From: Candidatus Jordarchaeales archaeon
Lineage (GTDB): Archaea > Asgardarchaeota > Jordiarchaeia > Jordiarchaeales > Freyrarchaeaceae
Direction of reading: 5' to 3'
Length of the DNA: 32,000 bases
NCBI GenBank assembly: GCA_038858525.1
Contig: JAWCFL010000017.1
Span: 1 to 32,000 of the forward strand
Shown: positions 1,982 to 19,891 of the stretch, in pieces
Layout: each line of letters begins with the position of its first letter
Numbering within the stretch: position 1 is the stretch's first letter
The notes under the pieces: generated by a model
Told to the model about the DNA's origin: nothing
Databases searched by the model: none
What the model saw: the letters and a program-made list of their open reading frames with translations, nothing else
Program-made: the position numbers and the translations under genes

Positions 1982-2025
1982 TTTTTATTCTTTATCATCA
2001 TTCTATCATTCATATTATTTTATTT

Positions 2026-3582
2026 TCATGGAAGAGGCCAGACTTCGTAGCTTGGAGGGTATGAAACCGTAAACTTGTAGTTTATCTTAAGCTCCTGCTC
2101 AGGCTTCAGTTTGGCTTCCCACTTCAATATGCCCGTTTCGCTCCTCTCGCTTGGAGGTGGTGTAGATGATATGAGCTCAACGATAATTTCTGGATCTCGT
2201 GGCACCGGGATCCTGTCGTAGATAACTGCGTTTACCTCTTCCCCTAGGTGATTTCTGACCTTGATGGAGTATCCATAAGTTATAGTTGTTTTACCCTTTA
2301 CAACGCCTTTCTTTTCCTCCTCTCTAATTGTCATCTTCCTTTCACACTCAAGTCTCTCTTCCCAAGAGGCGGGCAATTCAATTGTTTGGCCCAAAGCCAT
2401 GTATGGTAGCTCAGACACCCCAACCATTGTGTCTCCCTTAAAAACTCTGCATACTCCTGGAGGAAGAGGGAAGCTTTCATTCTTGATTTTCACTAGCTCT
2501 ACAAATCCAGGCGACGTATAGGCGTCCCAAACATAGAATGTTTCAGCGTTCATGGAGAAGCGTTCAATCAGTAGCAGAGTAGGTCTCCCGGGTACGAAGG
2601 AACCCTTAGAGGATATTTGAAACGCAAGTCCCCCCTCGACAGCCTCAGCCCTCTTAAATGCTGGTGCTAACATCTCTTTCTCCACTGCCTCCACTTCTTC
2701 TTTCACTTCCTTTGGTTGCGCGCCCACCCCTTTAAATAAGGTTGCCGGCGAGGGGCTGGGTGTTGGCCTTACGGCATCTATGAACCACGGTTCCGGCTTC
2801 GGCTTCCAAGCTCTTAAAACAGCCCTGCCATGTATTACTGCGGTGACATTTTCCCAAGGAATCCCGACGTTTTGCATAATCTCCGCGTAAAAGTCAACGT
2901 TAGCCTCTTCTTTTCCCAGTGTGACATCGTAAACAGGCATCCATCCAGCGTCACGCACATCGTAATGTACGTTAAACTCGTATTTACCTCCACGTTCGCA
3001 TGAGACGGCAAGCTCTATTGCTCCCAGCTCCAGAGCCCTCTCTTTTTCACCCTCTAAAAGGACATTAAGTCTCTTTATTTCGTCCCCCAGAACACTTATT
3101 TCTCTTTCTTTCTTTATAATTTCAGAAACAATTTCTCTTCTTCTTCTCGATACCTCACTCAAGAAGTTGCTAAGTTTTTCTCCACCATCACCACTAAGAG
3201 CTACCGTGGAGAAAGCTTCAATACCTTTCTTCACAGCCCTATCAAGGGAGTCAATCAGTTTTCTTAGTCCCTCCACCTCTCCCTCAAGCAACTTGAGTTT
3301 GTCCTCAGCATCTCTTAGCCTCTCTAAAATGGTTTGTTTTTCTGCCTCAACTTCCTCAACACCAACAACCGCGCTCTTCACATTTACCCCTGTGACTGCA
3401 ACCCCCCGCTTAGAAAACACTCGCACAGAACCAGGTATTATCGTCGACTCCTTCTCTATTCCCTCAATTAAAAGCACAGCTGGGCCCTCGCCAAGCTCAA
3501 CAGTGAAATGTCTTTTAACTGTTGCGAAGTTCCTAAAAAAGGAAACCTCCTTTAACTCAGTCGACACTTTTTTAACTGCCAT
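2026..3582 (-). CDS. DUF4140/DUF4139 domain protein (MuiA-like) with central coiled coil
   Basis: N-terminal VSFFRNFATV..GIEKESTIIPGSVRV, heptad coiled coil, W.P.YD...A.I.QN.G..W motif, and C-terminal DRIPV...G.L.W...LKP..E.KI.Y.F.V.YP. Confidence 0.85.
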   Translation of the reverse strand: MAVKKVSTELKEVSFFRNFATVKRHFTVELGEGPAVLLIEGIEKESTIIPGSVRVFSKRGVAVTGVNVKSAVVGVEEVEAEKQTILERLRDAEDKLKLLEGEVEGLRKLIDSLDRAVKKGIEAFSTVALSGDGGEKLSNFLSEVSRRRREIVSEIIKKEREISVLGDEIKRLNVLLEGEKERALELGAIELAVSCERGGKYEFNVHYDVRDAGWMPVYDVTLGKEEANVDFYAEIMQNVGIPWENVTAVIHGRAVLRAWKPKPEPWFIDAVRPTPSPSPATLFKGVGAQPKEVKEEVEAVEKEMLAPAFKRAEAVEGGLAFQISSKGSFVPGRPTLLLIERFSMNAETFYVWDAYTSPGFVELVKIKNESFPLPPGVCRVFKGDTMVGVSELPYMALGQTIELPASWEERLECERKMTIREEEKKGVVKGKTTITYGYSIKVRNHLGEEVNAVIYDRIPVPRDPEIIVELISSTPPPSERSETGILKWEAKLKPEQELKINYKFTVSYPPSYEVWPLP

Positions 3583-3856: not shown

Positions 3857-5356
3857 ATGTTGGAGCTTGTTAGCAAAGATTCTGGCGCTTCACGTAGAAT
3901 ATACATCGTTGACGCTCATCATCACTTAGGTGTAGATGTTGATGGTCAGAGTAACCGTAATCCTGCTGCTCCCGGAGGAACGTTTGATTTTTGCCTTAGG
4001 CTGGGAAGCCACTTATTAAAGGTTCTTTCCAATGAGAAGGTTGACCTTAAGTTTCAGCCTCATGGCTTTCTCAAAGAGTTGCTTGAGAGCGAAGAAAAAT
4101 GGCGGGAAACTCTTAACGGGACATGGGTAATAGACCAGACAGTAGTTTTCCCCTTTAATGACGAGTTTAAGTGGAAAGAGGGGGACGAAGGGAAAGCTAC
4201 TTATTGGAGGTCGAATGACAACGTTTACAGGTGGGTCTCTCGCGCCCCCTACTCTCTCAAACTAATAGGCTACTCACGCATGGTTCCACTTGAAGGAGAA
4301 GTTGCCATAAGAGAGCTTCACAGAAGCATTACGCAACTTGGTCTCAGAGGTGTAAAGCTTCACCCTCGCTCCGACGGATGGAGCAATGAAATAGACTCCG
4401 AACCTGTAGTTAACTTTCTTACGGAAGCAGCTAAGCTCGGGGTTCCCGTAATATTTGATACTCGTGGATTTAATCAGGTAGTTGACATAGCCTCAGCCAC
4501 CACAAAGGCGAGAACTAAGCTCGCAAAGATTGATAAAAGCCTAGCAAGACAACTTAAAGTAATAATTGCCCACATAGGCTTCCATCTGAGTTACGACGAA
4601 CTATACACGGTGCTAAGCCACCCCAACATTTACGGTGAAATTTCAGGCATACATAATGCCGGCATACGAAAACTCTTCGAGGAAGCACCACATAGACTGA
4701 AGGAGTCTCTGGGATTATACCGTTCATGGTCTGAGAAAATAATTTTTGGGACAGACTTTCCCTACTTCGACGTTCATCACGCTGTTCAGTTCATATCTTA
4801 CACGTTAAGCGAAGATTTTCCCGGAACAATTGAGGATGCGCAGCGAATCCTAGGAATTAACATCCTACGCCTGATACCTCCAAAGCTGAGATCTCTTCCT
4901 CAAAAGGCCGAATCGGTTCATGTGGACAAAACAGATCTTCCCACAGCAAAAAGGATGCTCGCATCTAAGATGGCAAAACTTTTCTCGGAAGGAAAATTGG
5001 ACATATCCTCCTTCGAGGTATTCCTCAGCCTTCCGCCTAGAGTGTCCGTGAGGGACGACTGTCTCCTGCTGGTTAAGGGCAAGAGGGGAAACGGTGATTA
5101 CTTCCCCTTCATAATACTCACAATGATGGGCCTTGGGGTTATAGCGCGTCTCGACTTTGATACATCCAGTTTTAAGCCGCTAATTAGCAGGGAGTTGGGA
5201 TTCGACGACTTCCCCCCGAGGCGACACCTTTACAACGTGCTGTGGCCAAATACCACCGAGAAAAATCAGTTAGAAATCGAGAAGAAAATATGCTTTCTTC
5301 TGAAACCTCTCTCAGGGAGTGAGGGAGAACCAGAGGAAAAGTTAAACGCAAGTTAA
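3857..5356 (+). CDS. Amidohydrolase_2-type TIM-barrel metallohydrolase with a C-terminal extension of unknown function
   Basis: DAHHH (HxH), GLRGVKLHP, AHIG and IFGTDFPY metal-ligand motifs are all intact. Confidence 0.85.
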   Translation: MLELVSKDSGASRRIYIVDAHHHLGVDVDGQSNRNPAAPGGTFDFCLRLGSHLLKVLSNEKVDLKFQPHGFLKELLESEEKWRETLNGTWVIDQTVVFPFNDEFKWKEGDEGKATYWRSNDNVYRWVSRAPYSLKLIGYSRMVPLEGEVAIRELHRSITQLGLRGVKLHPRSDGWSNEIDSEPVVNFLTEAAKLGVPVIFDTRGFNQVVDIASATTKARTKLAKIDKSLARQLKVIIAHIGFHLSYDELYTVLSHPNIYGEISGIHNAGIRKLFEEAPHRLKESLGLYRSWSEKIIFGTDFPYFDVHHAVQFISYTLSEDFPGTIEDAQRILGINILRLIPPKLRSLPQKAESVHVDKTDLPTAKRMLASKMAKLFSEGKLDISSFEVFLSLPPRVSVRDDCLLLVKGKRGNGDYFPFIILTMMGLGVIARLDFDTSSFKPLISRELGFDDFPPRRHLYNVLWPNTTEKNQLEIEKKICFLLKPLSGSEGEPEEKLNAS

Positions 5357-5404
5357 AACCGTTAGGTTAAATACTTGGTTTTTATATCATACAAAAGAGA
5401 GGGG

Positions 5405-6883
5405 ATGTTAATGCCTGATGAGAACCCCATTATTGACGCTGAGAAAAGCAAGGCGGAAGAAGGAGCAGTTAAACCCCTAAAAGCCGTCAAAAAAATGGTG
5501 AAGAAAAAGGAGGACGTAGAGCACAAAGTGAATAATGAAAAAAAAGAGGAAGAAGTTCTTAAAAAAATGTTTAAAGAGGCGGAGGAGGTTAAGACGGAGA
5601 AAGCCCCAAAGAAAACGCTTAGGGTCATGGTTGGAGAGGGCTTGTCCGGTTACGTTATTATCAACGATGCTGATGCCGGGGAACTTGGCGTCTACGAAGG
5701 AGCAATAGTTGAGTTCGAAGATCCCCTTTCTGGGGCAGGAGGCGTAGCCCTCGTACATCTGGACAAGAATGTCCCTGTAGGAACCGCTGTGATTGAGCCA
5801 GCCCTCAGTGAAGCGTGCGGCTTAGACGAGGGATTTGAAATAGACATGAAAAGGTTTGAAGGTTCACCACAAAAACTAACAAAAATCTCCTTTGGAATAG
5901 AGCCTCTTGAAGGAGAAGCAGAAGAAGCTATAAAGCGTGTTATGGACTCCAAGAAAGAGTTTCAAGACTGGCTCGATGGTAGGGTTATATTCAAAGATTG
6001 GGTTCTCAAAAATCCAAAGCTTAACGTCAACGTTTACATAGTTTCAACGGAGCCGCCCTTAACCGGAAGACAAGTTGGAATAATAAACTTTGCAGAAATA
6101 AAAGAGTATGAGATTAAGCCGTGGAGAGCAGCCGTACCGTTCAACGCTATCCTTCTGATAGACGTCTCAAGAAGCATGCTAACGGAAGACATGAAAGTCA
6201 CAAATATTGCTCCGGCAGTTGAAGCCATCAAAACTATAGGAGGAGAAGAAATACCGGAAGTCAAAGAGTTTCTGGAGCAGTTCCAAGAGGGAAAATCAAT
6301 TAAGAGAGTGGCAGGCGCGGTTTTTGCCGCTCTTCTATACTTAGTGGAGAAGGTGGGCAGAGGGTACGGCGAAAAAGTGGCCATAATAACGTACTCTGAA
6401 GATGCCGAGCCAATAACTTTCCTAATGACTGGAGGAATAAAGCTGCCATACTTCCACCCAGGAAAGAGTAAAATGGCAGGCGTTTCACAGCTTAGTAGGC
6501 TAATCATTGACCGGCTCAACAGAATCTCCAGTCAGCATACAAACATGTCGCAAGCCCTAATGAAAGCCCTAGAGCTGATTGAAATATGGAGCAAGGAAGA
6601 TGAAGAGAAAAAAATACCAACAATGGTTGTTCTCCTAAGTGATGGATTTCCTGACTTATGGGGTGAAGAAGGCCCACCTGTTCAGGTTGTACACGATCAT
6701 TTCTCCGGCAGGAACGACGTTGTAATCTACACTGTTGGCATTGGTGGAGATGTTCAGGAGAGAATAATGGAGGCTATTGCATCGAAAGGACGTGGCGTTT
6801 ACTTTAAGGCAGATGACCTAGGCGACCTGCTTAATTGGTATCAGCGGCTTGCACGCGACTTGGTAGTCCGGCTCGAAGTCTAG
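5405..6883 (+). CDS. Charged N-terminal tail + CDC48/p97 N-domain-like (double-psi barrel + CDC48_2) + VWA domain with intact MIDAS; no AAA domain
   Basis: VWA motifs ILLIDVSRSM (DxSxS), TNMSQAL, VLLSDG, IYTVGIG. Upstream YVIINDADAGELGVYEGAIVEF and VPVGTAVIEPALSEACGLDEGFEID resemble the double-psi barrel. Start moved from 5375 to ATG 5405/5411, behind a GAGGGG SD. Confidence 0.72.
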   Translation: MLMPDENPIIDAEKSKAEEGAVKPLKAVKKMVKKKEDVEHKVNNEKKEEEVLKKMFKEAEEVKTEKAPKKTLRVMVGEGLSGYVIINDADAGELGVYEGAIVEFEDPLSGAGGVALVHLDKNVPVGTAVIEPALSEACGLDEGFEIDMKRFEGSPQKLTKISFGIEPLEGEAEEAIKRVMDSKKEFQDWLDGRVIFKDWVLKNPKLNVNVYIVSTEPPLTGRQVGIINFAEIKEYEIKPWRAAVPFNAILLIDVSRSMLTEDMKVTNIAPAVEAIKTIGGEEIPEVKEFLEQFQEGKSIKRVAGAVFAALLYLVEKVGRGYGEKVAIITYSEDAEPITFLMTGGIKLPYFHPGKSKMAGVSQLSRLIIDRLNRISSQHTNMSQALMKALELIEIWSKEDEEKKIPTMVVLLSDGFPDLWGEEGPPVQVVHDHFSGRNDVVIYTVGIGGDVQERIMEAIASKGRGVYFKADDLGDLLNWYQRLARDLVVRLEV

Positions 6884-6893
6884 GAGCTGCGTT

Positions 6894-9800
6894 TTACGTT
6901 TTAGGCGTAAACGTAACCGTTATCAAGGAATTTTGGACTATCTTGCTTGGAATTTCCTTAAGTTCTCCTTTTACTTTTTCGAATAAAATTACGCCTAAGT
7001 AATAGGATTCTGCTTTATCAGGCTTCAGGATTTTCCACGTTAATGGCTCGTAAGATATTCTTTCTATTTTTCCTTTTGTAAGCGTGAGTTCGGCTGTTTT
7101 CCGCATGACGACCTTCTTGGTTTTCTTCTCAAATATAGCGAAAACTGCTCTGACTGGAAGAGTGTAGTCTGCGAAGCTTTGAACAGATGGTGATATTTTG
7201 AGTTCGAGTTCTTTTTCAACCTGAATGTACTCTGAGAGAGGCGGCGTACTGATATACGCCACTCTTATTGCTGGTCTCACGGCCTCGATTCTTATATGTC
7301 TCTCGTTGACCCATCCTACTTCTTCGCCCTTCTTAATTTCAATTTTTACTTTACACTCTTTGTCTGTTGCAAATAGGGGCGCTTTCACCGGTATTTTGAC
7401 GAGAACCTTGTCCTTGGCCTCTATTTTTACAGGTATCGTCTCCTGCAGGATTATAGTGTTGTTTGCAGCCTCTGTATATGTAAAGTCGAATGCTATTTGT
7501 GTGTTTAATTTATTCTCAAGCTGAATAATTGCGTCATGAAGCGCTCCAGGCGTCATGGTTTCGGGTATTTCATTTAAAAAGACACTTATGGCTTCCTTTA
7601 GGCGTACCACGTTAACATTCAGTTCGTCTTCCGCCAACTTCTCCCCGTTTCTCGTAAGGAAAGCTCTAACTGTAAACTTCTCAGCATCTCTCGGAATGTC
7701 TAAAGGCGGGATGTCAACCACGGAATCTATCATCGGTTCACTTAAAGGCACTTCCGCTGCTTTTTCTGTTCCTTTTTGAGTCACTTTTTCTATTATTAGA
7801 TTGCAGGGAATTAGGGCGCTGCTAAGCCCTCTTATCGCAACCTTTCCCGTGAGGGGTGATTCCGGCGTGACAGCATCAGGCATCGAAATAATTTTTAAGC
7901 TTACTTCTGGCCCCCTGAGCACCTTGAACTTTGCCGCCGTCTCAATGAGGTTTATAAGTTCGCCGTCATGAAAAACTTCAACAGATAAATACATAATGTC
8001 TTCGTCTTTTCCTCCCTTCAAAACGTCACTTGGAATGGTCCATTTAACAGGTATACTAGTTGTCACTCCCGGCTTGACCGACATATCAAGAATCTTTTTC
8101 TCAATATTGTTGGTTGTGGATTTCGCTTTTACAACAATACTGACGGGCGTTGGTGATAAGAGCTCGCTCGCGTCGACCATTACTGTTGTCTCTAGGGTTT
8201 CCCCTATGTTATACGTGGTTTTCGGGATCCGGCCAACCTCGACGGAAACCATCGCCCCCTGGAAGAAAACCCTAAAGTCCCTAGACCAGCCCTCTGAGAT
8301 CACTCTTCCACTCGAATCTATGAGCTGCGCCCTTATGGCGCATCTCGGACTAATCCACGAGCTGTATAGCCAAGGTTTCAGGACAAGTGGCTCTATTTCA
8401 ATCCAGCTCCCCTCAGTTTGCCCTTCTAACACAGCCTTCGCCCAGTCAAGCTTCGCAGTTTCTTCAGACATAGCGACGAAAAGAACTTGGTCACGTGCCC
8501 TTATGGGTTTAAGGTAAACGCCCCATGGCTTAACGTCACTCGTCACATAGTCAAGTTCACGTTTCTGATCCCTGTCAACGACGGCCACTCTCAGCGTCAA
8601 ATACATATCCTGCGGCGTGGTATTTTCGACGGCGACTATGAATGGTATTTCAGTTTCTCCGGTGACTATCACGCCGTCAACCTGCGCTATGAGGTCTGAT
8701 TTACAATTGACACGATAAACGGGTATAGCTAACTTATCGGTGGTGATGAGCTCGGAGGAGATCATGAGCTCAGCGCTTAAAGTATACTGCGAAATTCCTG
8801 CTTCTGTCTCGAATTCTACTTCGCCCACTCTCTTTTCGCCAGGCTCCAGCAAGTCTAATGCAAACTCCTCTTCAAGCACCTCTTCTCCGCTCTGACTCGT
8901 TACGATGCATCGTAAAGTGAGGTCTCTTAGCGGTTCATCTCCTTTGTTTTCTACAAACACCCGGCAAGTTACTGGTTGTCCTTCGAATACTACAGGGGTA
9001 TCCAGAGCTACTTCGAGTGAAACAGGAACCATGATGATCTCTTGGAGGTTTGGCGTGCCTGACAACGGGTCGCTCCAGATATTATTACAAGTCTGGTCTG
9101 CGATTATCTGAAGCTCCCTCGATAGGCTTTCAATGTCCTCTCCAAACTCAAAGAATTTTTCAAGCTGGTAGTCTGCTGTAGTCATTGGGGCGGTGACTTT
9201 CCCTGCAACATCACCGTAAACACTTACTAACAATGGGTTTAGATACTCTGACTTTAAGACCCCTAACTCTTCTAGTTCCTCCCTCAAAAAGAGGAACATG
9301 TTCTTGACGGCATCTACTAACCGCTTCACAGGCTCCTTGCCACCAGACTTGTGGTCAAAAAAGTACATGCGGGCAAAGTCAGGATGTCTCTTAACAATTA
9401 ATTCAAGATCCTTTGGCTTAAAGAAGGGCCCTGTAAGCCCCCACCTGATCGCTGACCTTCTGTTTTTGATTAGCGTCTCCGAGTCGATTTCAGGTATTTC
9501 TTCCTTCGTCTCGAGGAGTTTCTTAGCTTTAAGTGCTATTGCCTGAAGAAGAGCTGCGAGGGCTATTTTTCGTATCACGCTTATTTGGCAGTCGAAAAAT
9601 CTTGCCTCAACGGTGCCGTACTTCGTAAACGGGTACATGTCACACATTCTTGCAGGTGTTCGACCAATTGTTTTTTCGAAGAATTCCTCATCAAGAGACT
9701 TAAGATGGGGAATATAGTGCTGTGGGTCGTCTGGTCCAAGTTGCCGGACGTTAAGTTGTAACCGCACACTCCTAACGCATCCTGGAGCCTGAAGTTTTCC

Positions 9801-10439
9801 ATCTTTAAGCATGACGGCATCTGTTGGTCGACCATTTACAAATGGTGAATTAACCGAGAGGGCTATTAGATGAGGTATGAAGGCGCGGATAAGGTTGTAA
9901 ACAGCTATCCGGAGCTTTGTGTCCGGAATCCCTATATGGTGGTGGTCGCCGAAGCTCAAACCCTGCTGGTACTCCATCAGCGGATTTAACCCCGTCGTTA
10001 TGAGTTTAACTCCTGCAGGAAGAGAGTCGTGTGAAAGTTTGAAGAGCGTATGAAGCCACCATGCAAGCTCCTCTAGATTATCGCATGGAGGCGTGGCAAT
10101 TTCCAGAATCCAAGTTATTGTTCCTATATGTGGGTCTCGCCCAAGCAGTTCCACATCTATCTTTTTTCCATCGGGAAGAGTGTATGATATTATAAGCGTT
10201 TCCCCTCTTCTTTCAACGGGTGCAACCCTTACGTTTGAGGCCTTTTTACTTATTCTTTTAACGAGCTCATCCTGAGGGTCTTTAAGTATTGCTTTCAGCC
10301 CATCTGCTACGTCGTGGACTATTTTGCCCATTATACTGATCATTTTTTCTCCATCAATCCAGCGTCCTTTCAAGTTCACGATCTGAACTTCCGACTCTAT
10401 GCCATGGGTGAAGGGTAATTTAAAGATAGAAGAGCTCAA
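6894..10439 (-). CDS. GCS2/YbdK-family carboxylate-amine ligase (about aa 1-470) fused to about six Ig-like/CARDB-like beta-sandwich domains
   Basis: HGIESEVQ, LEIATPP, GLNP, GDHHHIG, ALSVNSPF and DMYPFTKYGTVEARFFDCQ match the glutamate-cysteine ligase type 2 signatures. The C-terminal ~710 aa are repeated beta-strand units (VENKGDEPL...LEPGE). No signal peptide or TM helix seen. The TTG start overlaps the upstream stop (TTGA). Confidence 0.8.
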   Translation of the reverse strand: MSSSIFKLPFTHGIESEVQIVNLKGRWIDGEKMISIMGKIVHDVADGLKAILKDPQDELVKRISKKASNVRVAPVERRGETLIISYTLPDGKKIDVELLGRDPHIGTITWILEIATPPCDNLEELAWWLHTLFKLSHDSLPAGVKLITTGLNPLMEYQQGLSFGDHHHIGIPDTKLRIAVYNLIRAFIPHLIALSVNSPFVNGRPTDAVMLKDGKLQAPGCVRSVRLQLNVRQLGPDDPQHYIPHLKSLDEEFFEKTIGRTPARMCDMYPFTKYGTVEARFFDCQISVIRKIALAALLQAIALKAKKLLETKEEIPEIDSETLIKNRRSAIRWGLTGPFFKPKDLELIVKRHPDFARMYFFDHKSGGKEPVKRLVDAVKNMFLFLREELEELGVLKSEYLNPLLVSVYGDVAGKVTAPMTTADYQLEKFFEFGEDIESLSRELQIIADQTCNNIWSDPLSGTPNLQEIIMVPVSLEVALDTPVVFEGQPVTCRVFVENKGDEPLRDLTLRCIVTSQSGEEVLEEEFALDLLEPGEKRVGEVEFETEAGISQYTLSAELMISSELITTDKLAIPVYRVNCKSDLIAQVDGVIVTGETEIPFIVAVENTTPQDMYLTLRVAVVDRDQKRELDYVTSDVKPWGVYLKPIRARDQVLFVAMSEETAKLDWAKAVLEGQTEGSWIEIEPLVLKPWLYSSWISPRCAIRAQLIDSSGRVISEGWSRDFRVFFQGAMVSVEVGRIPKTTYNIGETLETTVMVDASELLSPTPVSIVVKAKSTTNNIEKKILDMSVKPGVTTSIPVKWTIPSDVLKGGKDEDIMYLSVEVFHDGELINLIETAAKFKVLRGPEVSLKIISMPDAVTPESPLTGKVAIRGLSSALIPCNLIIEKVTQKGTEKAAEVPLSEPMIDSVVDIPPLDIPRDAEKFTVRAFLTRNGEKLAEDELNVNVVRLKEAISVFLNEIPETMTPGALHDAIIQLENKLNTQIAFDFTYTEAANNTIILQETIPVKIEAKDKVLVKIPVKAPLFATDKECKVKIEIKKGEEVGWVNERHIRIEAVRPAIRVAYISTPPLSEYIQVEKELELKISPSVQSFADYTLPVRAVFAIFEKKTKKVVMRKTAELTLTKGKIERISYEPLTWKILKPDKAESYYLGVILFEKVKGELKEIPSKIVQNSLITVTFTPKT

Positions 10440-11173
10440 CTTTGATCACCCGCCTTTTCCAGCGCGTCTTCAACTGCAGAGACAAGTCTCTCAGTTACGT
10501 CGTTAATCATGCTTTCAGGTAAACTCATGTCTAGAAACGAAACTCGTTGCCCTCCTCTTTTTACAAAAACGTGGATGCAATATGCTATAGGCCCCCCTCC
10601 AAAAGTTTCATTATCAAGTATTACACGCACGCCAGAACTTAAAAGCGAATTAACAATGTTATGCCTATCAATAGTTGTGAGTTCATTTATAACTACGGCC
10701 GCGTCCCCCATAGGCATCATCTTAAAGGAACGAAGAAGAATAAGAACGGCGTTTAAGCCGCTTTTATTAAGCAGTATAGACGACATTAACTTTACCAATT
10801 TCTCCCCTGACTCCAAATCCTCTCCAGGCTCTGGAAAGAAGAGATAGTAGAAAGGTTTTCCCTCCACTTTTTTCCTCTCGAAAACCTGTTTCACAGAGCT
10901 TAACAGGACTTCATCTTCCTGCGTTGACAACAACATTAGTGGGATAAACCTCTCATCCTCTCCTGGTATTGAAAGCTTACCCTCCTTCTTCATTCTTTCA
11001 ATATTCCTCATAAATGCCTCGTCGACTATTGAAGATAGAAGAGCATAAAGATGCGCGTAATCTTTTGCCAACTCAACAGCCAACGAGATAAGTTGCTCCG
11101 TTTCCCCTAAAACAGAAAGAAGTGATGTAACAGCCAAGTTGCTCCTTTCAATGACGCTGATCACTTTGTTCAT
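10436..11173 (-). CDS. Hypothetical protein; C-terminal half weakly resembles the N-formylglutamate amidohydrolase (Zn-exopeptidase) fold without obvious metal ligands
   Basis: Long ORF, translationally coupled to the ligase. GVRVILDNETFGGGPIA...VSFLDMSLP resembles the V..N.PY.GG.I...lQiEi pattern (pattern reading only). Confidence 0.6.
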   Translation of the reverse strand: MNKVISVIERSNLAVTSLLSVLGETEQLISLAVELAKDYAHLYALLSSIVDEAFMRNIERMKKEGKLSIPGEDERFIPLMLLSTQEDEVLLSSVKQVFERKKVEGKPFYYLFFPEPGEDLESGEKLVKLMSSILLNKSGLNAVLILLRSFKMMPMGDAAVVINELTTIDRHNIVNSLLSSGVRVILDNETFGGGPIAYCIHVFVKRGGQRVSFLDMSLPESMINDVTERLVSAVEDALEKAGDQS

Positions 11174-11181
11174 GCTTTCGC

Positions 11182-12342
11182 CTACCTTGAAAGCTCTTCT
11201 ATAGACTTTAAAAGGTCGTTTTTATGCCTCCTTAACTCCTGCAACTTCTCGGAGAACTCGCTTATGAAGTCCCTTATCCTCGTTATGGCGTCATCTATTA
11301 TTTTTAGCCTCTCATCGAGCTTCTCAGTTAGATTTCCTGTTTCGCCAAGTTTTAGAAGCGAAGACAGTTTGCCCTCAATAGCGCTTACTCTCCCCTCAAG
11401 GACGGCGAGCCTTCCCTTAACGTCCTCTAGCGCCTCTTTAATTTCTGAGAAGCTCAGTTGCGGGGCTGGCGTAATGACCTCAGTAGCCCCCATTACTTCT
11501 TTCCTTACTTCTTCACTCACTTCGGCTTTCTCAGCTTCCACCTTTCCTTCCAACTTCAGGAGAACAGTCTCCTCCTCATGGCTAGGCCCCGTTAAACCGC
11601 TGATGTAACAGTCATAAACTTCAGCTATGGCCTCCGACATCTCTCTATTGTAAGGCTCGCCTCCTAAGCCTGAAAAAATACATGCCACATCATCATGATA
11701 CTTTAAACACCAAATCCCTCTTCCGCTTTTCTGCTCTAGGAAGAGCAGTAGTGAGGATGAGAAAAACGGGCTTTCGAAAAGATTCTGCACCGTTCTAACT
11801 ATCAAGTTTAACTCTTTCGGTAATGGCCCACCCGCCTCAAACGAGTCACGCGCCCATGCATATTCAAGGTCTTCGCTATCGATAAGCTTTCTAACCCAGT
11901 TCTCTAATCCCTCCACGACTATTCTGGTCCCACTAAACTCATAGGTTCTCTCGCTGAAACCAAGTAGCGAAAGAATGTTAGCCACAATCATCTTCGCCTC
12001 TCTCTCACGGGTCTTGAAAATACAAAGCCACTTCTCTCGCCCATAACCAACAACACACATTCTGCTTCCATTCAACTCCACAACTATAATGGCTAACAGG
12101 TCGCTTCGTAGGAGGGGTGAAAGAAAAACTTCGTTAGAAAACATCCTCAGAAACCTATGCGTCGCATCCATCACCTCGGGACTCAACACGTCGCCCCTAA
12201 AAAACCTGAGGAGTTGTGTTATGCTTCCTCCACTCTTAAGCGCCTCAGCCACTTCATTTATGACCGAAAGATCCGTGAAGAGGTAACCGCTGATCACACC
12301 CACAGTAGAACCATACCACTTGTCAAGCCACTGCCTGAGCAT
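11182..12342 (-). CDS. Hypothetical protein with two internally repeated alpha/beta modules (Roadblock/longin-like) and a C-terminal coiled coil
   Basis: ATG at 12342 follows a GAGGTGA SD. Internal repeat: LSPLLRSDLLAIIVVELNGSRMCVVGYGREKWLCIF vs ESPFFSSSLLLFLEQKSGRGIWCLKYHDDVACIF. Heptads in the last ~90 aa. Confidence 0.65.
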   Translation of the reverse strand: MLRQWLDKWYGSTVGVISGYLFTDLSVINEVAEALKSGGSITQLLRFFRGDVLSPEVMDATHRFLRMFSNEVFLSPLLRSDLLAIIVVELNGSRMCVVGYGREKWLCIFKTREREAKMIVANILSLLGFSERTYEFSGTRIVVEGLENWVRKLIDSEDLEYAWARDSFEAGGPLPKELNLIVRTVQNLFESPFFSSSLLLFLEQKSGRGIWCLKYHDDVACIFSGLGGEPYNREMSEAIAEVYDCYISGLTGPSHEEETVLLKLEGKVEAEKAEVSEEVRKEVMGATEVITPAPQLSFSEIKEALEDVKGRLAVLEGRVSAIEGKLSSLLKLGETGNLTEKLDERLKIIDDAITRIRDFISEFSEKLQELRRHKNDLLKSIEELSR

Positions 12343-12471
12343 TTCACCTCTCTTCAAGGAAACCCCCACCAAGACACTATATATTCAAACACTACTCTAT
12401 CATTAAGCCTAAATAACTCTTCTTCAAACAAAAAAAGTGGGAGCCGTATGCGCAGCGCTTTTCTTATCTGA

Positions 12472-12675
12472 TTAACCGCTTGGAGGTACCTTCTTAGCCT
12501 TTTCCTCCACGTGCTTTTCGAGGGCGCTAGCCGCCTCCTGCATCATTCTAGCGCGCTCCTCCTTTGTTTTGGCTAGCGACTCCTTCTCCTCTTTTTTCCT
12601 TTCTCCGTGAAGCTTCTCCAAGATCTCCTTCGTTTTCTTTACCTCTTCGGGGGATGGTGGTGCTTCTTCGCTCAA
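12472..12675 (-). CDS. Small, highly charged (E/K-rich), probably helical or disordered 67-aa protein
   Basis: TTG start preceded by an AAGGTGG SD. Codon usage matches neighbouring genes, and a T-tract follows the stop. Confidence 0.7.
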   Translation of the reverse strand: MSEEAPPSPEEVKKTKEILEKLHGERKKEEKESLAKTKEERARMMQEAASALEKHVEEKAKKVPPSG

Positions 12676-13169: not shown

Positions 13170-13200
13170 CTTCTTCTCCAACAGTGTGAGATGGTGCGTT

Positions 13201-13818
13201 ATGCCTCTTTCCCTTTCTTTGGATGCTGCCAGAAAGCTTTCCTCAACTATAGAAGCTCTTTTAACTGCTTGGTCTCTTGTCCGTGCGTCAGCACCTCGCT
13301 TAATCCTAAAGGAAAAAGAAGAAAGAGATTTTGTCGAGAAACTGTTACTGGCGCATCGCGCTCTCTCTGAGCTTTTATCTCTTCTCGGGCTCGACAAGCA
13401 AGAAAACGAGCTTATCAGTGCTCTTTCAGAACTAAATCCTAATGAAACATTACTCCTCGTCGTTCCCCCCTCATTGATGAGGCGCCTTGTGGGAGTCGGT
13501 ATTCCACATGAAAGAGTAATATCAATTGGAGGACCATTAAGCGCTGAAGACGCCAAGGCGTTAAATCCCCACCTTCCCGAGGAAGCTATGAAAGGTGTTG
13601 AAGCACGTTTAAAGAATTTTTGGAGAGAGCTTGAAAGAAAAATTAAAGGAGCACGTACAGTTCTTTTCATCCTGGAGAAAGCTGGCAAAGTTGACGAACT
13701 TATAGCCAAGCGTGCCAGTATGCTTTCTGAAAAGTTTGGAGTCGATGTTAAAGTTGTCTACTTAACTAATCTTGATTCCTGCGTAGAAATTCTACCGCGT
13801 TTTTTCAGGAGGGAGTGA
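13201..13818 (+). CDS. pscE: SepCysE (DUF2100), scaffold linking SepRS and SepCysS
   Basis: IEALLTAWSLVRASAPRLILKEKEERDFVEKLLLAHRALSELL..LG and SIGGPLSAEDAKALNPHLPEEAMKG match my recollection of methanococcal SepCysE. It sits between tRNA-Cys and pscS. ATG 13201 follows a GGTG SD. Confidence 0.75.
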   Translation: MPLSLSLDAARKLSSTIEALLTAWSLVRASAPRLILKEKEERDFVEKLLLAHRALSELLSLLGLDKQENELISALSELNPNETLLLVVPPSLMRRLVGVGIPHERVISIGGPLSAEDAKALNPHLPEEAMKGVEARLKNFWRELERKIKGARTVLFILEKAGKVDELIAKRASMLSEKFGVDVKVVYLTNLDSCVEILPRFFRRE

Positions 13819-13821
13819 GAA

Positions 13822-15024
13822 GTGCCGCTTAGACCTGAACGCCTTTCGAAGTATCGCAACCTTACAAGGAGTACCGAGATTGAAGCGATAAATCTCAACC
13901 CAATTCAGAGTGGGGGACGTGCCGGAAACTACCCTGAAGTCGTCAAATCAGTACTGAACTTCATAGATGGATATAGCACGTGCGACTACTGCATTAAGGG
14001 TAGACTCGAGGAAATCGAGACGCCACCGCTATGTGACTTCCACGCTGACCTAGCAGAATTCATCGAAATGGATGAAGTCAGGCTTCTACCGGGATGCAGG
14101 CAGGCTCAGTTTGCTGCTTTTCACAGCCTAGCAAGCCCAGGAGACTACGTGGTCATAGATTCTCTAGCACATTACTCGACATATCTGGCTGCCGAGAGAG
14201 CTGGACTGAAAATAATTGAGGTGCCCAACAGTGGTTTCCCTTATTTTGAAGTGTCACCTGAGCTTTACGCCGAAAAAATAGAGGAAGCTAAACGCGTCAC
14301 TAAAAAAACACCTGCATTGGTTTTCCTTACTCACGTTGACTACTCCTACGGTAACCTTGCGGATGCCGAGGCCATTGCAAAGGTCTCCCACGAGTATGAC
14401 GTACCATTCATGTTAAACTGCGCGTACACTATTGGTAGAATGCCTGTATCCGGACGAAAATTGAAGGCTGACGTAGTAGTAGCCTCGCTCCATAAGTCTT
14501 TCGCGTCCCCTGCCCCCTCAGGAATACTTGCAGCTAATGGAGAGTACGCTGAGAAAATATTCAGAAAGTCAACGGTGAAGGGAGAGTGGAGCGGCAGAAC
14601 TTTTCCAAACAAGGAGGTAGAACTTTTAGGATGCACGTTGCCCGGCTGCGTCGTTGTTGGAGTGATGGCGGCATTCCCCTACGTTGCTGAAAGAGTAGAG
14701 CGATGGAGTGAAGAGGTCGAGAAAGCCCGTTACTTCTCAAGCCAGCTGACGAAGATCGAAGGCGTCATTCAGCTTGGGCAGACCCCCCATAACCATGACC
14801 TCCTCCACTTTGAAAGCTCCTCGTTCTTCGAGGTGGCTCGCGCTCACCCTAGAAAGGGTTTCTTCCTCTATGACGAACTAAAAGCTAGAGGAGTCGTGGG
14901 CGTCCAGCCAGGCCTATCGAGGTCCTGGAAACTTTCAACATACGGACAAAGCTGGGAAAATGTTAAAAAAGCGGCTCAAGCATTCCTTGAAATAGCTGAA
15001 AAATACAATATCCCCGTCTCTTAA
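13822..15024 (+). CDS. pscS: O-phosphoseryl-tRNA(Cys):Cys-tRNA synthase (SepCysS)
   Basis: INLNPIQSGG, DGYSTCDYC (CxxC), HYSTYLAAE, PLP lysine in SLHKS, VELLGCT, LYDELKARG..G..PG. Confidence 0.95.
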   Translation: MPLRPERLSKYRNLTRSTEIEAINLNPIQSGGRAGNYPEVVKSVLNFIDGYSTCDYCIKGRLEEIETPPLCDFHADLAEFIEMDEVRLLPGCRQAQFAAFHSLASPGDYVVIDSLAHYSTYLAAERAGLKIIEVPNSGFPYFEVSPELYAEKIEEAKRVTKKTPALVFLTHVDYSYGNLADAEAIAKVSHEYDVPFMLNCAYTIGRMPVSGRKLKADVVVASLHKSFASPAPSGILAANGEYAEKIFRKSTVKGEWSGRTFPNKEVELLGCTLPGCVVVGVMAAFPYVAERVERWSEEVEKARYFSSQLTKIEGVIQLGQTPHNHDLLHFESSSFFEVARAHPRKGFFLYDELKARGVVGVQPGLSRSWKLSTYGQSWENVKKAAQAFLEIAEKYNIPVS

Positions 15025-17347: not shown

Positions 17348-19891
17348 TTGTTTCTCATTGATTCCGGTGGTCGCGAGGAAGAAGTCTATGTTGTAGATGT
17401 CGACGCCCAGGTTGGAGTAAGCTCTGGAGCAGTCAGTAAAAATTACAGTTTAAGCGGCCTACACGAGTTCATAAAAGAACTAGAAGGAGAACTTCTTCTC
17501 AAAAGTGCACCTCTCAAGCGTCGGGTTACAAGATTTAATTCCAGCATTTTCCTAAACCTTAAAAATGCTCATTTCAGGAAGCTCAGTAGCTTTGCCGACG
17601 AGTTTTTTGCATCTCCTTTCGTTACGAAGATAGCCAGTAGTGGGGGGAAAGTGGAGTTTGTAATTCAGGAGGTTTCTCGGAACAATGCCTTGGTTTTGAG
17701 ATGGCTTCAAGGGTCCGGCTTTTTTAACACTTCCCCCTTTAGATACGTTCTTCCAGATGAAGTGCCCGATGTACCATACCTTGTCTCGGAGGGGTATCGA
17801 GGGGTACGAACCAAGTTTGATGAAGCTTCATGGTTCGCGACGCTTTACTCTGACCTATCGTACTTCGGAATGCCATTAATAGTTGAAATCTTCAGTAGAC
17901 GTGAACTAGACTTGCTAGAAAATTTCATTGAGCAAAGCGAGGTTAATGGAAAACTGGAGAACCCGCTTATAATTGTTCCGTATTTGAGGGAGAAAGTAAG
18001 GTTCGACCTTTATGGTTTAATGGGGGTTAAGAACGTTTTCCTATGTTTTTCTCCTATGTCGCTAACTGCTTTGAAGCAGCTAATTTATGACCTCAATGAA
18101 CTCGACAAAGAGTGGTTTAAACACCTAATCTTCGGAACAGGGTTCCCATTTTCTAGCATGAGGGATATCGTGAATGTTCTCACTTTCCTCCTAAGCGATG
18201 AATTCCCTGGAGGCTTAAGGGAGCTTAGATGGATTATGGGTTTAAACGCGATGTCCTTTCTTCCTCCAAAAACACAGCGGAAAGGAGATATAGAGAAAGA
18301 TGAAAAATGCATCATTACTAATGGGACGACAGCTAGGTTGCTTTTTTCCTCCCTCAGAAACTTCATGCTTCATGCATTGAAGAGAAACTCTATTTCTTTA
18401 GCTACCTGTGACTGTTTAGCAAGCTTAACTAATGAACGAGTAGACCCAAATAAGTGTTTTATTGTTCTTTCATCGGTCAAAGAAAAGAAGTTTGGAGGCA
18501 TGCTCCTCCTATCAGAAGGCGGTAGCGACACGTTGGCCCTGCTTTTATTAAGGCAGGAAGTTATCAGAAAGGCGAAAAGTAGGTTTGCTGAGGAAGTGCT
18601 CAATCAGCCGGAGATAAAAACTGCCATTTCTAACGCCGTTAAGTTGTCCTCAAGCGAGGACGTGGAGAAGTGGTTAAAGTGGTTTATCGAGCACTACAAG
18701 GAGAACGGCATGATAAGTAGCGATGACATTAACTCGTTCACAGTTCACACATTCAACCTTGGTGATATGTTAGCCTTAATGAATAGAGAGGACATGCGTC
18801 TACTTGGATTAAATGACGGCGACCTAATACTCGTTAGAGCTACCTTGACTGGAGACTGGTATATCGTTCCTGTAAAGGAGGGTGAAGAGGTTCCAGGAGG
18901 AGAACTTTGGGTTGACGAACGAGTAATCAATACTTGGTATGTTTTTGATGGCGACGTTCTTCAGATTGAAAAGTTTGATGGCGACGTTCCAGCTCTCAAA
19001 GAAATAAGCTTGTTGATCGATGACGAGAAGAAATTACAGGACGCCGAAAAAGTGACGGAGAATGTTCTTGATGGCATTATAGTGGGGCGTGGTTCCCGGC
19101 TGGTGCTTCTGGCAGGCGAAGACATGCCTCTTGTTGCATCAGTTGTGAAATTGGATCCTCCCATTCTGATGGCTGGAACAGTTAAAAAGGGAGAGACCAA
19201 GATAACCATAGTTCCTAAGAGTACTCTAGCACCCTACAACCTGTTCTTAGTGATAGACCTTTCGGAAAACATGGGTCGAGGTGCTCCTGTCTCCATAGAT
19301 CCCGCTGTTATCGAAGAACTAAAATATGTGCTTTCTATGAAAGCTGAGGAGCCCTGTGAGAGGGAACTTAATCGTGCCGTTGCTTCTTCCCTCGCTTCCT
19401 CTTACCTTTTAGTAAAAATGGTTAAGATTAGCCATCTGAGCAAGGTTTTCTTTCTAACGTGCTCAGACGAAGTAAACATGTTTTCAATACTCGAAAAAAG
19501 GAAAGTCTCCCCCTACTTAGAAATGACCCCTCAAAAACAGAACATCATGTTGAGAATTCTTTCATCCCACATGTTCGACAAGTGTAGAGAAGGGTGTAAA
19601 GGAAGAGGAAAACTTCTCGAAGCAGCAAGCAAAATAGAGGAGCTGCTAGGAGACTTAAAGGAAAACGTTCCGTTTCTCGTTCTCTTCGTGGTTCCTAGTG
19701 ATAACTTAGATGAGGCAGTAAAAGCTGCCGAGCTACTGAAGAAAGATAGCAGGATTAGAACCGCCTTCATAAGTATAGGGCCTGACGCTTCCACTTCAAA
19801 AGAACAAAGCCACATATGCTTAAGTGAGGTGAATGCCGCCCTGCTCGACGAGGCTGTTAAACGTTTGCTTAACGTGGTATTCCCCAGTTAA
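17348..19891 (+). CDS. Fusion of a degenerate amidohydrolase, a CDC48-N-like domain and a degenerate VWA domain; paralog of 3857-5356 plus 5405-6883
   Basis: LIFGTGFPF...LSDEFPG.....IMGLNAMSFLPPK aligns with IIFGTDFPY...LSEDFPG.....ILGINILRLIPPK. APYNLFLVIDLSENM aligns with VPFNAILLIDVSRSM. LMNREDMRLLGLNDGDLILV is a double-psi-barrel pattern. Confidence 0.75.
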   Translation: MFLIDSGGREEEVYVVDVDAQVGVSSGAVSKNYSLSGLHEFIKELEGELLLKSAPLKRRVTRFNSSIFLNLKNAHFRKLSSFADEFFASPFVTKIASSGGKVEFVIQEVSRNNALVLRWLQGSGFFNTSPFRYVLPDEVPDVPYLVSEGYRGVRTKFDEASWFATLYSDLSYFGMPLIVEIFSRRELDLLENFIEQSEVNGKLENPLIIVPYLREKVRFDLYGLMGVKNVFLCFSPMSLTALKQLIYDLNELDKEWFKHLIFGTGFPFSSMRDIVNVLTFLLSDEFPGGLRELRWIMGLNAMSFLPPKTQRKGDIEKDEKCIITNGTTARLLFSSLRNFMLHALKRNSISLATCDCLASLTNERVDPNKCFIVLSSVKEKKFGGMLLLSEGGSDTLALLLLRQEVIRKAKSRFAEEVLNQPEIKTAISNAVKLSSSEDVEKWLKWFIEHYKENGMISSDDINSFTVHTFNLGDMLALMNREDMRLLGLNDGDLILVRATLTGDWYIVPVKEGEEVPGGELWVDERVINTWYVFDGDVLQIEKFDGDVPALKEISLLIDDEKKLQDAEKVTENVLDGIIVGRGSRLVLLAGEDMPLVASVVKLDPPILMAGTVKKGETKITIVPKSTLAPYNLFLVIDLSENMGRGAPVSIDPAVIEELKYVLSMKAEEPCERELNRAVASSLASSYLLVKMVKISHLSKVFFLTCSDEVNMFSILEKRKVSPYLEMTPQKQNIMLRILSSHMFDKCREGCKGRGKLLEAASKIEELLGDLKENVPFLVLFVVPSDNLDEAVKAAELLKKDSRIRTAFISIGPDASTSKEQSHICLSEVNAALLDEAVKRLLNVVFPS

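What the first reader, a model, noticed from the sequence alone, without database searches (positions are those of the whole stretch)
3857..12675. Candidate undescribed ligation/deligation system: GCS2 ligase-Ig giant, amidohydrolase, CDC48N-VWA and accessory proteins
Two convergent units meet with a 10-nt gap (6883/6894). On +: an intact metallo-amidohydrolase and a CDC48-N-like/VWA protein. On -: a small charged protein, a tandem Roadblock-like/coiled-coil protein, an FGase-like protein and a 1181-aa carboxylate-amine ligase with Ig-like repeats. Established background: Pup ligase PafA and depupylase Dop belong to the same glutamine synthetase/GCS fold, and p97-N-like and VWA domains act as substrate adaptors in proteasomal systems (Ufd1, Rpn10). 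Inference: an amide-forming writer, an amide-cleaving eraser and adaptor proteins for protein or peptide modification, not glutathione synthesis. The two halves are on opposite strands, so their linkage rests on adjacency alone.
Basis: inference. Interest (0 to 1): 0.78.

Follow-up and report, generated by a model that had tools for sequence, protein, structure and literature searches.

The report
Archaeal ligase-hydrolase-vWA adaptor module
Three of these six genes (an ATP-driven amide-bond ligase, a metal hydrolase and a Cdc48N-vWA docking protein) form an undescribed unit inherited together across many Asgard archaea and some Thermoplasmata, which probably adds and removes a glutamyl-type mark on proteins or peptides, though its target is unknown.

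Summary
All six ORFs exist as described, in a Jordarchaeia (Asgard) genome. They stay neighbours in several gene orders, give congruent trees, and recur as one-strand operons in Thermoplasmata, so the module is not Asgard-only. A natural CDC48N-vWA-ligase fusion exists, and the ligase domain and vWA protein are predicted to bind (0.64 vs best control 0.01). Metal sites of all three are intact; the ligase's strand-5 Arg is Tyr. The FGase-like protein looks catalytically dead and has relatives in some Asgard classes. The Roadblock-like protein is Jordarchaeia-only, and the small charged gene is probably a bystander, not a Pup-like tag. A dead hydrolase-CDC48N-vWA fusion lies at 17348-19891. Thermoplasmata versions carry ubiquitin-domain genes. 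No Pup, PafA or GshB match, and no conserved AAA+ neighbour. Reversible protein/peptide gamma-glutamylation is my best reading (0.5); a small-molecule cycle remains (0.3). No paper found. This scan noted the trio before on other genomes.

The parts
3857..5356 (+). Core 1: TIM-barrel metallo-amidohydrolase (Amidohydro_2-like) with an unassigned ~150-aa C-terminal domain; candidate eraser
   Evidence: Pfam E 1.4e-16; D19, H21, H23, K167, H169, D201, H239, D300 invariant in 20 homologues; 170/301 Asgard genomes
5375..6883 (+). Core 2: charged N-terminal tail, CDC48-N-like domain (about aa 80-255), vWA with intact MIDAS and a conserved K-x-x-[RK]-G-x-G-E loop; docking subunit. True start probably the ATG near 5405-5411
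   Evidence: 170/301 genomes; predicted to bind the ligase domain
9060..10439 (-). Core 3: GCS2/YbdK-type carboxylate-amine ligase domain (aa 1-460): G13-E15-E17, D102, E113, H166-x-H168, R226, R264, E278-x-R280-x-x-D283; the usual DIRP Arg is Tyr269
   Evidence: Z 34.9 (rmsd 2.6, 329 aligned) to YbdK-like 1tt4, 26.8 to plant GCL, 19.1 to PafA; alignments; 170/301 genomes
6894..9040 (-). Six tandem, mutually homologous Ig-like beta-sandwiches of the ligase (aa about 468-1181), fast-evolving; lineage-variable arm
   Evidence: AF2 model; HH 63-93% between repeats, 11-16% identity to distant homologues vs 40% for the catalytic domain; only generic macroglobulin-type fold hits
10436..11173 (-). 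Accessory: N-terminal helices plus FGase/Zn-peptidase-like fold without catalytic residues; directly upstream of the ligase
   Evidence: Atlas leads; HH 98.6% to the gene upstream of the ligase in Thorarchaeia; weak match (E 3e-4) to the C-terminus of the upstream gene in Lokiarchaeia; only D187, G192, G193 invariant
11182..12372 (-). Accessory, Jordarchaeia only: two Roadblock/longin/profilin-like domains, linker, C-terminal coiled coil
   Evidence: model pLDDT 79; Z 7.2 Rag roadblock for aa 4-138, Z 7.8 MON1A for aa 165-260; found in 2 of 32 genomes, both Jordarchaeia
12472..12675 (-). 67-aa charged helical protein; real gene but probably not part of the module
   Evidence: 11/11 Jordarchaeia genomes, but on other contigs or about 115 kb away in all six genomes of the sister family; C-termini vary
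17348..19891 (+). Outside the finding: 847-aa fusion of degenerate amidohydrolase + CDC48-N + vWA (metal ligands and MIDAS lost); probable inactive paralogue/regulator
   Evidence: BLAST to both core genes; alignment; similar fusions near the ligase in two other Asgard families (L045, L054)

Best explanation
The ligase, the CDC48N-vWA protein and the amidohydrolase are one functional unit (shown by genomics, about 0.9). The ligase uses ATP and Mg to phosphorylate a glutamate gamma-carboxylate and joins it to an amine (inferred from the intact GS/GCS-fold site). The CDC48N-vWA protein docks beside the ligase active-site loops and presents the substrate or partner, its MIDAS binding an acidic residue (docking predicted, role inferred). 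The metallo-hydrolase cleaves the same amide (inferred). The acceptor is most likely a protein or peptide, because everything that varies around the core is a protein-interaction or localisation module: Ig arrays, a dead FGase-fold protein, Roadblock-like domains and, in Thermoplasmata, ubiquitin-like domains, membrane anchors and 2000-aa helical arms. This gives a reversible gamma-glutamyl/isopeptide modification without a separate Pup-type tag.
For: Same 10 positive and 20 negative families for all three genes (by my count from the lists about 154 genomes have all three and 119 none). Linked in different orders: convergent in both Jordarchaeia paralogues, AH>GCS>vWA in L066/L067, vWA>x>GCS>AH in L093, GCS>AH>vWA in Thermoplasmata L099/L100. 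The second Jordarchaeia paralogue groups with the L066/L067 lineage in all three trees (support 0.98-1.0). Natural CDC48N-vWA-ligase fusion P0133 and hydrolase-CDC48N-vWA fusion. Predicted ligase-vWA complex 0.64 vs best control 0.01, runs agree in at least 87% of contacts, partner pLDDT at least 82; the mark was reached by 58 of 80 solved and 2 of 110 mismatched pairs, counts only roughly valid with my alignments. Ubiquitin-domain genes sit inside four Thermoplasmata loci (Pfam ubiquitin 1.5e-7). A distant ligase clade is fused to CDC48-N repeats and followed by CDC48N-vWA twice, once with a CDC48N-transglutaminase-like gene and GGACT nearby. PafA shows this fold can ligate to protein lysines (PMC2588565, PMC3511204).
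Against: No substrate, tag or product is identified. The closest fold is the small-molecule ligase YbdK/GCL, not PafA. Amidohydrolase plus gamma-glutamyl ligase is read as small-molecule metabolism in FluG (PMC6478659), and GGACT or transglutaminase neighbours were read as peptide-metabolite synthesis (PMC2588565). The minimal Thermoplasmata form has no Ig tail. No conserved AAA+ or proteasome gene nearby. The lost strand-5 Arg may alter or slow the chemistry. The vWA partner was not found in 3 of 5 (small or incomplete) Thermoplasmata genomes with ligase and hydrolase.
Confidence: 0.5

Rival explanations
1. A small-molecule or short-peptide gamma-glutamyl cycle: the ligase makes gamma-Glu-Cys or gamma-glutamylates an amine or peptide, the hydrolase removes or processes it (FluG/SCO6961-62-like), and the vWA protein is a regulatory or scaffolding subunit.
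For: Best structural matches are YbdK-like and plant GCL; Glu alpha-carboxylate Arg (R226) retained; FluG precedent (PMC6478659); oligopeptide ABC genes are co-directional upstream of the ligase in Thorarchaeia; tail-less 500-aa ligases exist.
Against: Known small-molecule GCS2 enzymes need no CDC48N-vWA partner (own knowledge); no GshB in five carriers; accessory genes are interaction modules, not metabolic enzymes or transporters, in all other lineages.
Confidence: 0.3
2. A Pup- or ubiquitin-like tagging route feeding Cdc48/proteasome: a small protein is ligated by its C-terminal Glu and read by the CDC48N-vWA adaptor.
For: PafA/Dop share the fold (Z 19); invariant Asp102 at the strand-2/3 acidic position resembles PafA/Dop (own knowledge, a lead only); CDC48-N and ubiquitin-like domains present.
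Against: Only 3 of 357 small ORFs in 54 loci end in G[EQ] or GG, none conserved; the 67-aa gene has variable C-termini and is unlinked in the sister family; the ubiquitin-like domains are N-terminal without C-terminal GG; no Pup_ligase hit; no conserved AAA+ neighbour.
Confidence: 0.1
3. A self-contained switch or maturation complex: the ligase-fold ATPase modifies or remodels one of its own partners (for example the invariant Lys326 of the vWA loop, or the hydrolase), giving an ATP-driven on/off cycle that accessory arms place at membranes or GTPase modules.
For: The invariant K-x-x-R-G-x-G-E loop lies at the predicted interface (residues 328-331); strict 1:1:1 co-inheritance; dead fusion paralogue; strand-5 Arg lost.
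Against: The model does not place Lys326 among confident contacts or in the active site; no precedent known to me.
Confidence: 0.1

Closest known systems
YbdK/GCS2 carboxylate-amine ligases (PF04107; PDB 1r8g, 1tt4; plant GCL 2gwc)
   Same: Fold (Z 34.9) and the metal/ATP motifs on strands 1-4 and 6, plus the loop Arg.
   Different: Separate clade, below NCBIfam cut-offs (79 vs 176 bits for TIGR02050); DIRP Arg replaced by Tyr/Phe with an invariant Arg five residues earlier; 700-aa Ig arm; constant hydrolase and vWA partners.
Pup-proteasome system (PafA, Dop, Pup; PMC2588565, PMC3511204)
   Same: GS/GCS-fold ligase able in principle to form gamma-glutamyl isopeptides; writer plus eraser logic.
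   Different: No Pup G[EQ] tag found, no PF03136 match, candidate eraser is a TIM-barrel hydrolase and not a ligase paralogue, no linkage to proteasome or ATPase genes.
FluG / SCO6961-SCO6962 (amidohydrolase + gamma-glutamyl ligase; PMC6478659)
   Same: Pairing of a metallo-amidohydrolase with a GS-fold ligase of unknown substrate.
   Different: FluG's ligase is GSI-like, not GCS2-like; no CDC48N-vWA subunit; thought to act on a metabolite.
Uncharacterised carboxylate-amine ligases with transglutaminase, GATase or AIG2/GGACT neighbours (Rv2566 and CJD_1902 families, PMC2588565)
   Same: Ligase plus amide-cleaving enzyme in a conserved neighbourhood.
   Different: Different families and partners; the hydrolase/CDC48N-vWA set is not among those described in that paper.
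MoxR/AAA+-vWA chaperone pairs and p97 adaptors (Ufd1, Rpn10; own knowledge)
   Same: MIDAS vWA and CDC48-N-type domains used as adaptors.
   Different: No AAA+ ATPase is linked; the vWA partner is predicted to dock on a ligase.

Membership tests
Carboxylate-amine ligase superfamily (GCS2-like) | GhExE on strand 1 | tested here: met
   G13-I-E15-S-E17, invariant in 30 homologues; feature list from PMC2588565
Carboxylate-amine ligase superfamily (GCS2-like) | Acidic residues on strands 2 and 3 | tested here: met
   D102 and E113 invariant
Carboxylate-amine ligase superfamily (GCS2-like) | [HD]x[NH] on strand 4 and Ex[RK]x2D on strand 6 | tested here: met
   H166-H-H168; E278-A-R280-F-F-D283
Carboxylate-amine ligase superfamily (GCS2-like) | Arg in the long loop before strand 5 | tested here: met
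   R226 invariant or nearly so
Carboxylate-amine ligase superfamily (GCS2-like) | Arg on core strand 5 (YbdK DIRP) | tested here: not met
   Tyr269 (Tyr/Phe across the family); near-invariant R264 may compensate
YbdK/GshA gamma-glutamylcysteine ligase | Score above curated cut-off of the YbdK/GshA models | tested here: not met
   79.5 vs 176.4 (TIGR02050); 79.1 vs 371 (PRK13515)
YbdK/GshA gamma-glutamylcysteine ligase | ATP-dependent Glu + Cys ligation | not testable with these tools
   needs an assay
Pup-proteasome system | Small neighbouring tag ending G[EQ] | tested here: not met
Pup-proteasome system | PafA/Dop family ligase (PF03136) | tested here: not met
   0 hits in own genome (92.7% complete), control positive; GCS2 fits far better
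Pup-proteasome system | Linkage to proteasome or AAA+ ATPase genes | tested here: not met
   No conserved such neighbour within about 10 kb in 54 loci, by clustering and a Walker A scan
Amidohydrolase superfamily | HxH on strand 1, Lys/His on strands 4-5, His on strand 6, Asp on strand 8 | tested here: met
   H21/H23, K167/H169, H239, D300 invariant; D201 stands where many members have His
vWA (MIDAS-type) | DxSxS...T...D | tested here: met
   All five invariant in 14 homologues
CDC48 N-terminal domain | Double-psi barrel profile match | tested here: met
   PF02359 in 6/14 members, best 1.9e-9; VAT-N 1cz4 E 0.004
N-formylglutamate amidohydrolase (PF05013) | Zn-binding His/Asp and catalytic Glu | tested here: not met
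   No Pfam hit; no conserved His or Glu, only D...GGG
N-formylglutamate amidohydrolase (PF05013) | FGase/phosphorylase-hydrolase-like fold | tested here: inconclusive
   Atlas feature score 0.85 and TM 0.49 on a low-confidence model
Roadblock/longin | Roadblock/profilin-like alpha/beta fold | tested here: inconclusive
   Z 6.5-7.8, rmsd about 4, several independent Roadblock and longin hits for each of two domains; no Pfam hit
FluG-type amidohydrolase/gamma-glutamyl ligase | GSI-like ligase domain | tested here: not met
   GS structures Z about 15-16 vs 34.9 for YbdK-like

The most novel reading that the evidence does not exclude
An undescribed, reversible protein-modification system of archaea, including Hodarchaeales-type Asgard lineages close to eukaryotes: a GCS2-fold ligase clamped to a CDC48N-vWA adaptor writes gamma-glutamyl or isopeptide marks on protein targets chosen by exchangeable arms (Ig arrays, Roadblock-like and ubiquitin-like domains), and a TIM-barrel metallo-hydrolase erases them. 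It would be an independent second recruitment of this fold to protein modification, after pupylation.
Probability: 0.45. Interest if true: 0.9.

Novelty: new variant of a known kind. Interest (0 to 1): 0.72.

Why it matters
A three-gene unit kept in more than half of sampled Asgard genomes, mostly single-copy, with three intact metal sites and no description in the literature I could search, is a substantial gap in the biology of the closest prokaryotic relatives of eukaryotes. If it modifies proteins, it adds a new writer/eraser/adaptor system beside ubiquitin, SAMP and Pup and shows CDC48-N and vWA adaptors working without an AAA+ motor. It is directly testable: the compact Thermoplasmata operon (about 500+480+460 aa) and the thermophilic version here suit expression, and a cultured Lokiarchaeon lineage (family f9, inferred) carries the genes. 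If it only makes a small gamma-glutamyl compound, it still defines an unknown archaeal pathway.

Tried and rejected
Six-gene system: rejected; core of three. 67-aa protein as Pup-like tag: rejected. FGase-like protein as second hydrolase: no catalytic residues; PDB sequence search gave only coiled-coil noise; its profile missed Loki- and Hod-type genomes, so its homology to the Loki gene rests on weak HH (E 3e-4) and Atlas TM 0.53. Foldseek hits of the Ig arm to complement/macroglobulin are generic (rmsd about 30) and not taken as function. PF02955 hits in the genome also ring in non-glutathione controls and are not GshB evidence; PF02951 gave none. An apparent FG-ligase fusion in G069 was not confirmed. 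DUF4139, HtpX, DUF2100 and SepCysS neighbours are linked only within the family or genus. Sigma-70 promoter/terminator scan is uninformative for an archaeon. RNA: one RNA library's contigs cover most of the window, so DNA carry-over is not excluded; a second gave 28 reads, those on the hydrolase in the sense-consistent direction; too thin to use. Literature searches for Asgard+GCS2, Asgard+carboxylate-amine ligase, COOH-NH2 ligase+vWA, Asgard+glutamylation and related terms found no description; Iyer et al. 2009 (Mol Biosyst) was not held and could mention such a neighbourhood. The tree is a quick search; the GCS2-3xCDC48N clade is on a long branch and its place is unsure. One hhalign batch timed out and was rerun in parts.
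Full report
OBSERVATION. All six ORFs are at the stated coordinates with a 10-nt convergent gap. Relatives place the window in Jordarchaeia, Asgard archaea. Pfam gives Amidohydro_2, VWA and GCS2; the other three genes have no significant family.

ANATOMY. Ligase: the AF2 model (pLDDT 87) has a GCS2 domain (aa 1-460; Z 34.9 to YbdK-like 1tt4, 26.8 to plant GCL, 19.6 Dop, 19.1 PafA) and six mutually homologous Ig-like sandwiches that diverge much faster than the enzyme (11-16% vs 40%). Of the superfamily features listed in PMC2588565, GhExE, the strand-2/3 acids, HxH, ExRxxD and the loop Arg are invariant, but the strand-5 Arg is Tyr/Phe family-wide, with a near-invariant Arg five residues before it. 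Hydrolase: eight metal-site residues invariant in 20 homologues. vWA protein: MIDAS intact; the N-terminal part is CDC48-N. The 245-aa protein has FGase/Zn-peptidase-like leads but no conserved His or Glu, so it is probably a binding protein. The 396-aa protein models as two Roadblock/longin-like domains plus coiled coil, with moderate Z.

DO THE HALVES BELONG TOGETHER? Yes. In 301 Asgard genomes each core gene is found in 170, in the same 10 families and in none of the other 20. By my count from the lists about 154 have all three, 119 none, and the 28 partial cases are mostly fragmented assemblies. Kin are not independent, so the stronger evidence is rearrangement and duplication. The trio is convergent in both Jordarchaeia paralogues and in L054; co-directional AH>GCS>vWA in L066/L067 (Hodarchaeales-type, inferred from named proteins); vWA>x>GCS>AH in L093; GCS>AH with vWA elsewhere in Loki-type genomes; and about 10 kb apart in Thorarchaeia. 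In all three gene trees the second Jordarchaeia copy groups with L066/L067. Two fusions tie the parts: CDC48N-vWA-ligase (P0133, E 3e-57 to the vWA family) and hydrolase-CDC48N-vWA, one of which lies in this window at 17348-19891 with its metal ligands lost. The ligase domain and the vWA protein pass the complex test: 0.64 against best control 0.01, runs agreeing in at least 87% of contacts, partner pLDDT at least 82; the mark was reached by 58 of 80 solved and 2 of 110 mismatched pairs, roughly valid since my alignments were used. This supports binding but does not show it. The interface uses the CDC48-N barrel and the vWA loop next to invariant Lys326, against ligase segments 105-108, 158-161 and 325-340.

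WHAT IS NOT CORE. The FGase-like gene precedes the ligase in Jordarchaeia and Thorarchaeia (HH 98.6%) and probably as the C-terminus of an Ig-containing gene in Loki-type genomes. The Roadblock-like gene was found only in Jordarchaeia. The 67-aa gene is in all 11 Jordarchaeia genomes but away from the ligase in the sister family, with variable C-termini.

BEYOND ASGARD. A profile search found the same ligase clade with other appendages. L080 and its relatives, named Thermoplasmata and Ca. Natronoplasma, have the full trio; 17 of 121 genomes of that class carry the ligase. L099 and L100 hold a compact GCS>AH>vWA operon with no Ig tail. L080, L098, L109 and L110 insert two genes with N-terminal ubiquitin-like domains (Pfam ubiquitin E 1.5e-7), whose C-terminal domain recurs in front of a ligase with a predicted membrane anchor. 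Others carry about 2000-aa helical arms. A more distant clade has GCS2 fused to CDC48-N repeats followed by CDC48N-vWA, once with a CDC48N-transglutaminase-like gene and GGACT nearby. So earlier notes calling the module Asgard-only are contradicted.

MECHANISM. Shown: co-inheritance, intact sites, fusions. Predicted: ligase-vWA docking. Inferred: acyl-phosphate chemistry on a Glu gamma-carboxylate (established for the fold), reversal by the hydrolase, and a protein or peptide acceptor, argued from the variable interaction modules and the absence of conserved metabolic neighbours across lineages. I give this 0.5. A small-molecule gamma-glutamyl cycle as proposed for FluG (PMC6478659) gets 0.3; GshB was not found in five carriers, which does not exclude gamma-Glu-Cys as the end product. 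A Pup-type tag route gets 0.1: no G[EQ] tag, no PafA, no linked AAA+. Self-modification of the complex gets 0.1.

NOVELTY. No paper found; one key review was unavailable. All parts are known folds and ligase-plus-hydrolase neighbourhoods are a known kind, hence 'new variant'; it would be categorically new if protein modification is shown. This scan's agents reported the trio on at least nine other windows; these are not independent evidence. I had derived the core before reading them.

Noticed in passing
window 17348-19891 (+): 847-aa fusion of degenerate amidohydrolase, CDC48-N and vWA; no Pfam hit; homologous fusions near the ligase in L045 and L054.
   Followed up: partly
own genome C19:1176-4009, C31 end, C37:2006-3325: Second hydrolase-vWA pair, a second ligase at a contig end, and a third stand-alone CDC48N-vWA gene.
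   Followed up: partly
L080:1965-2922, L098:13468-14439, L109:1514-2567, L110:4382-5339: Tandem genes with an N-terminal ubiquitin-like domain and an unnamed C-terminal domain shared with the ligase N-terminus, in Natronoplasma-like Thermoplasmata.
   Followed up: yes
L084:3-8007, L085:214-3302: Separate system: GCS2 fused to three CDC48-N domains, CDC48N-transglutaminase-like gene, CDC48N-vWA, with GGACT, Macro and a CDC48N/PARP-like gene nearby; organism unknown.
   Followed up: partly
L081:304-8083, L083:3830-12067: Distant 350-aa ligases: one in an operon with a small CDC48-N gene and four beta-propeller/Zn-ribbon genes, one downstream of FtsK/WXG100 genes.
   Followed up: partly
L078:2600-12889: The vWA-ligase fusion gene sits beside DNA methylase, Mom, SLATT, TGT, QueC, QueF and TIR genes, a defence-island-like cluster.
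   Followed up: no
L079:1914-15670: 2769-aa ligase with a 2000-aa Glu/Lys-rich helical arm and HhH motif, flanked by two CDC48N-vWA genes; a 221-aa gene that looks JAB/MPN-like by eye (no Pfam support).
   Followed up: partly
P0216, P0223: GCS2-like proteins fused to cold-shock domains.
   Followed up: no
L043-L053 upstream of the ligase: Thorarchaeia: oligopeptide ABC ATPase genes and a conserved 145-aa helical gene are co-directional with the FGase-like and ligase genes.
   Followed up: partly
L058-L069: Loki-type loci: a 402-aa coiled-coil gene and a Roadblock-like gene (by eye) often follow the hydrolase.
   Followed up: no
window 13186-15024 (+): DUF2100 and SepCysS (Sep-tRNA:Cys-tRNA synthase) pair.
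   Followed up: no
window 965-3582 (-): DUF4139/DUF4140 protein and HtpX protease, divergent from the hydrolase; linked only within the family.
   Followed up: partly
window 16233-17180 (-), 19951-21018 (+), 29076-29948 (+): SPFH/Band 7 gene divergent from the 847-aa fusion; two ORFs of 355 and 290 aa with no Pfam match.
   Followed up: no
P0135, P0155: Tail-less ~500-aa ligases named Heimdallarchaeaceae and Helarchaeota branch outside the main group; their partners were not checked.
   Followed up: no
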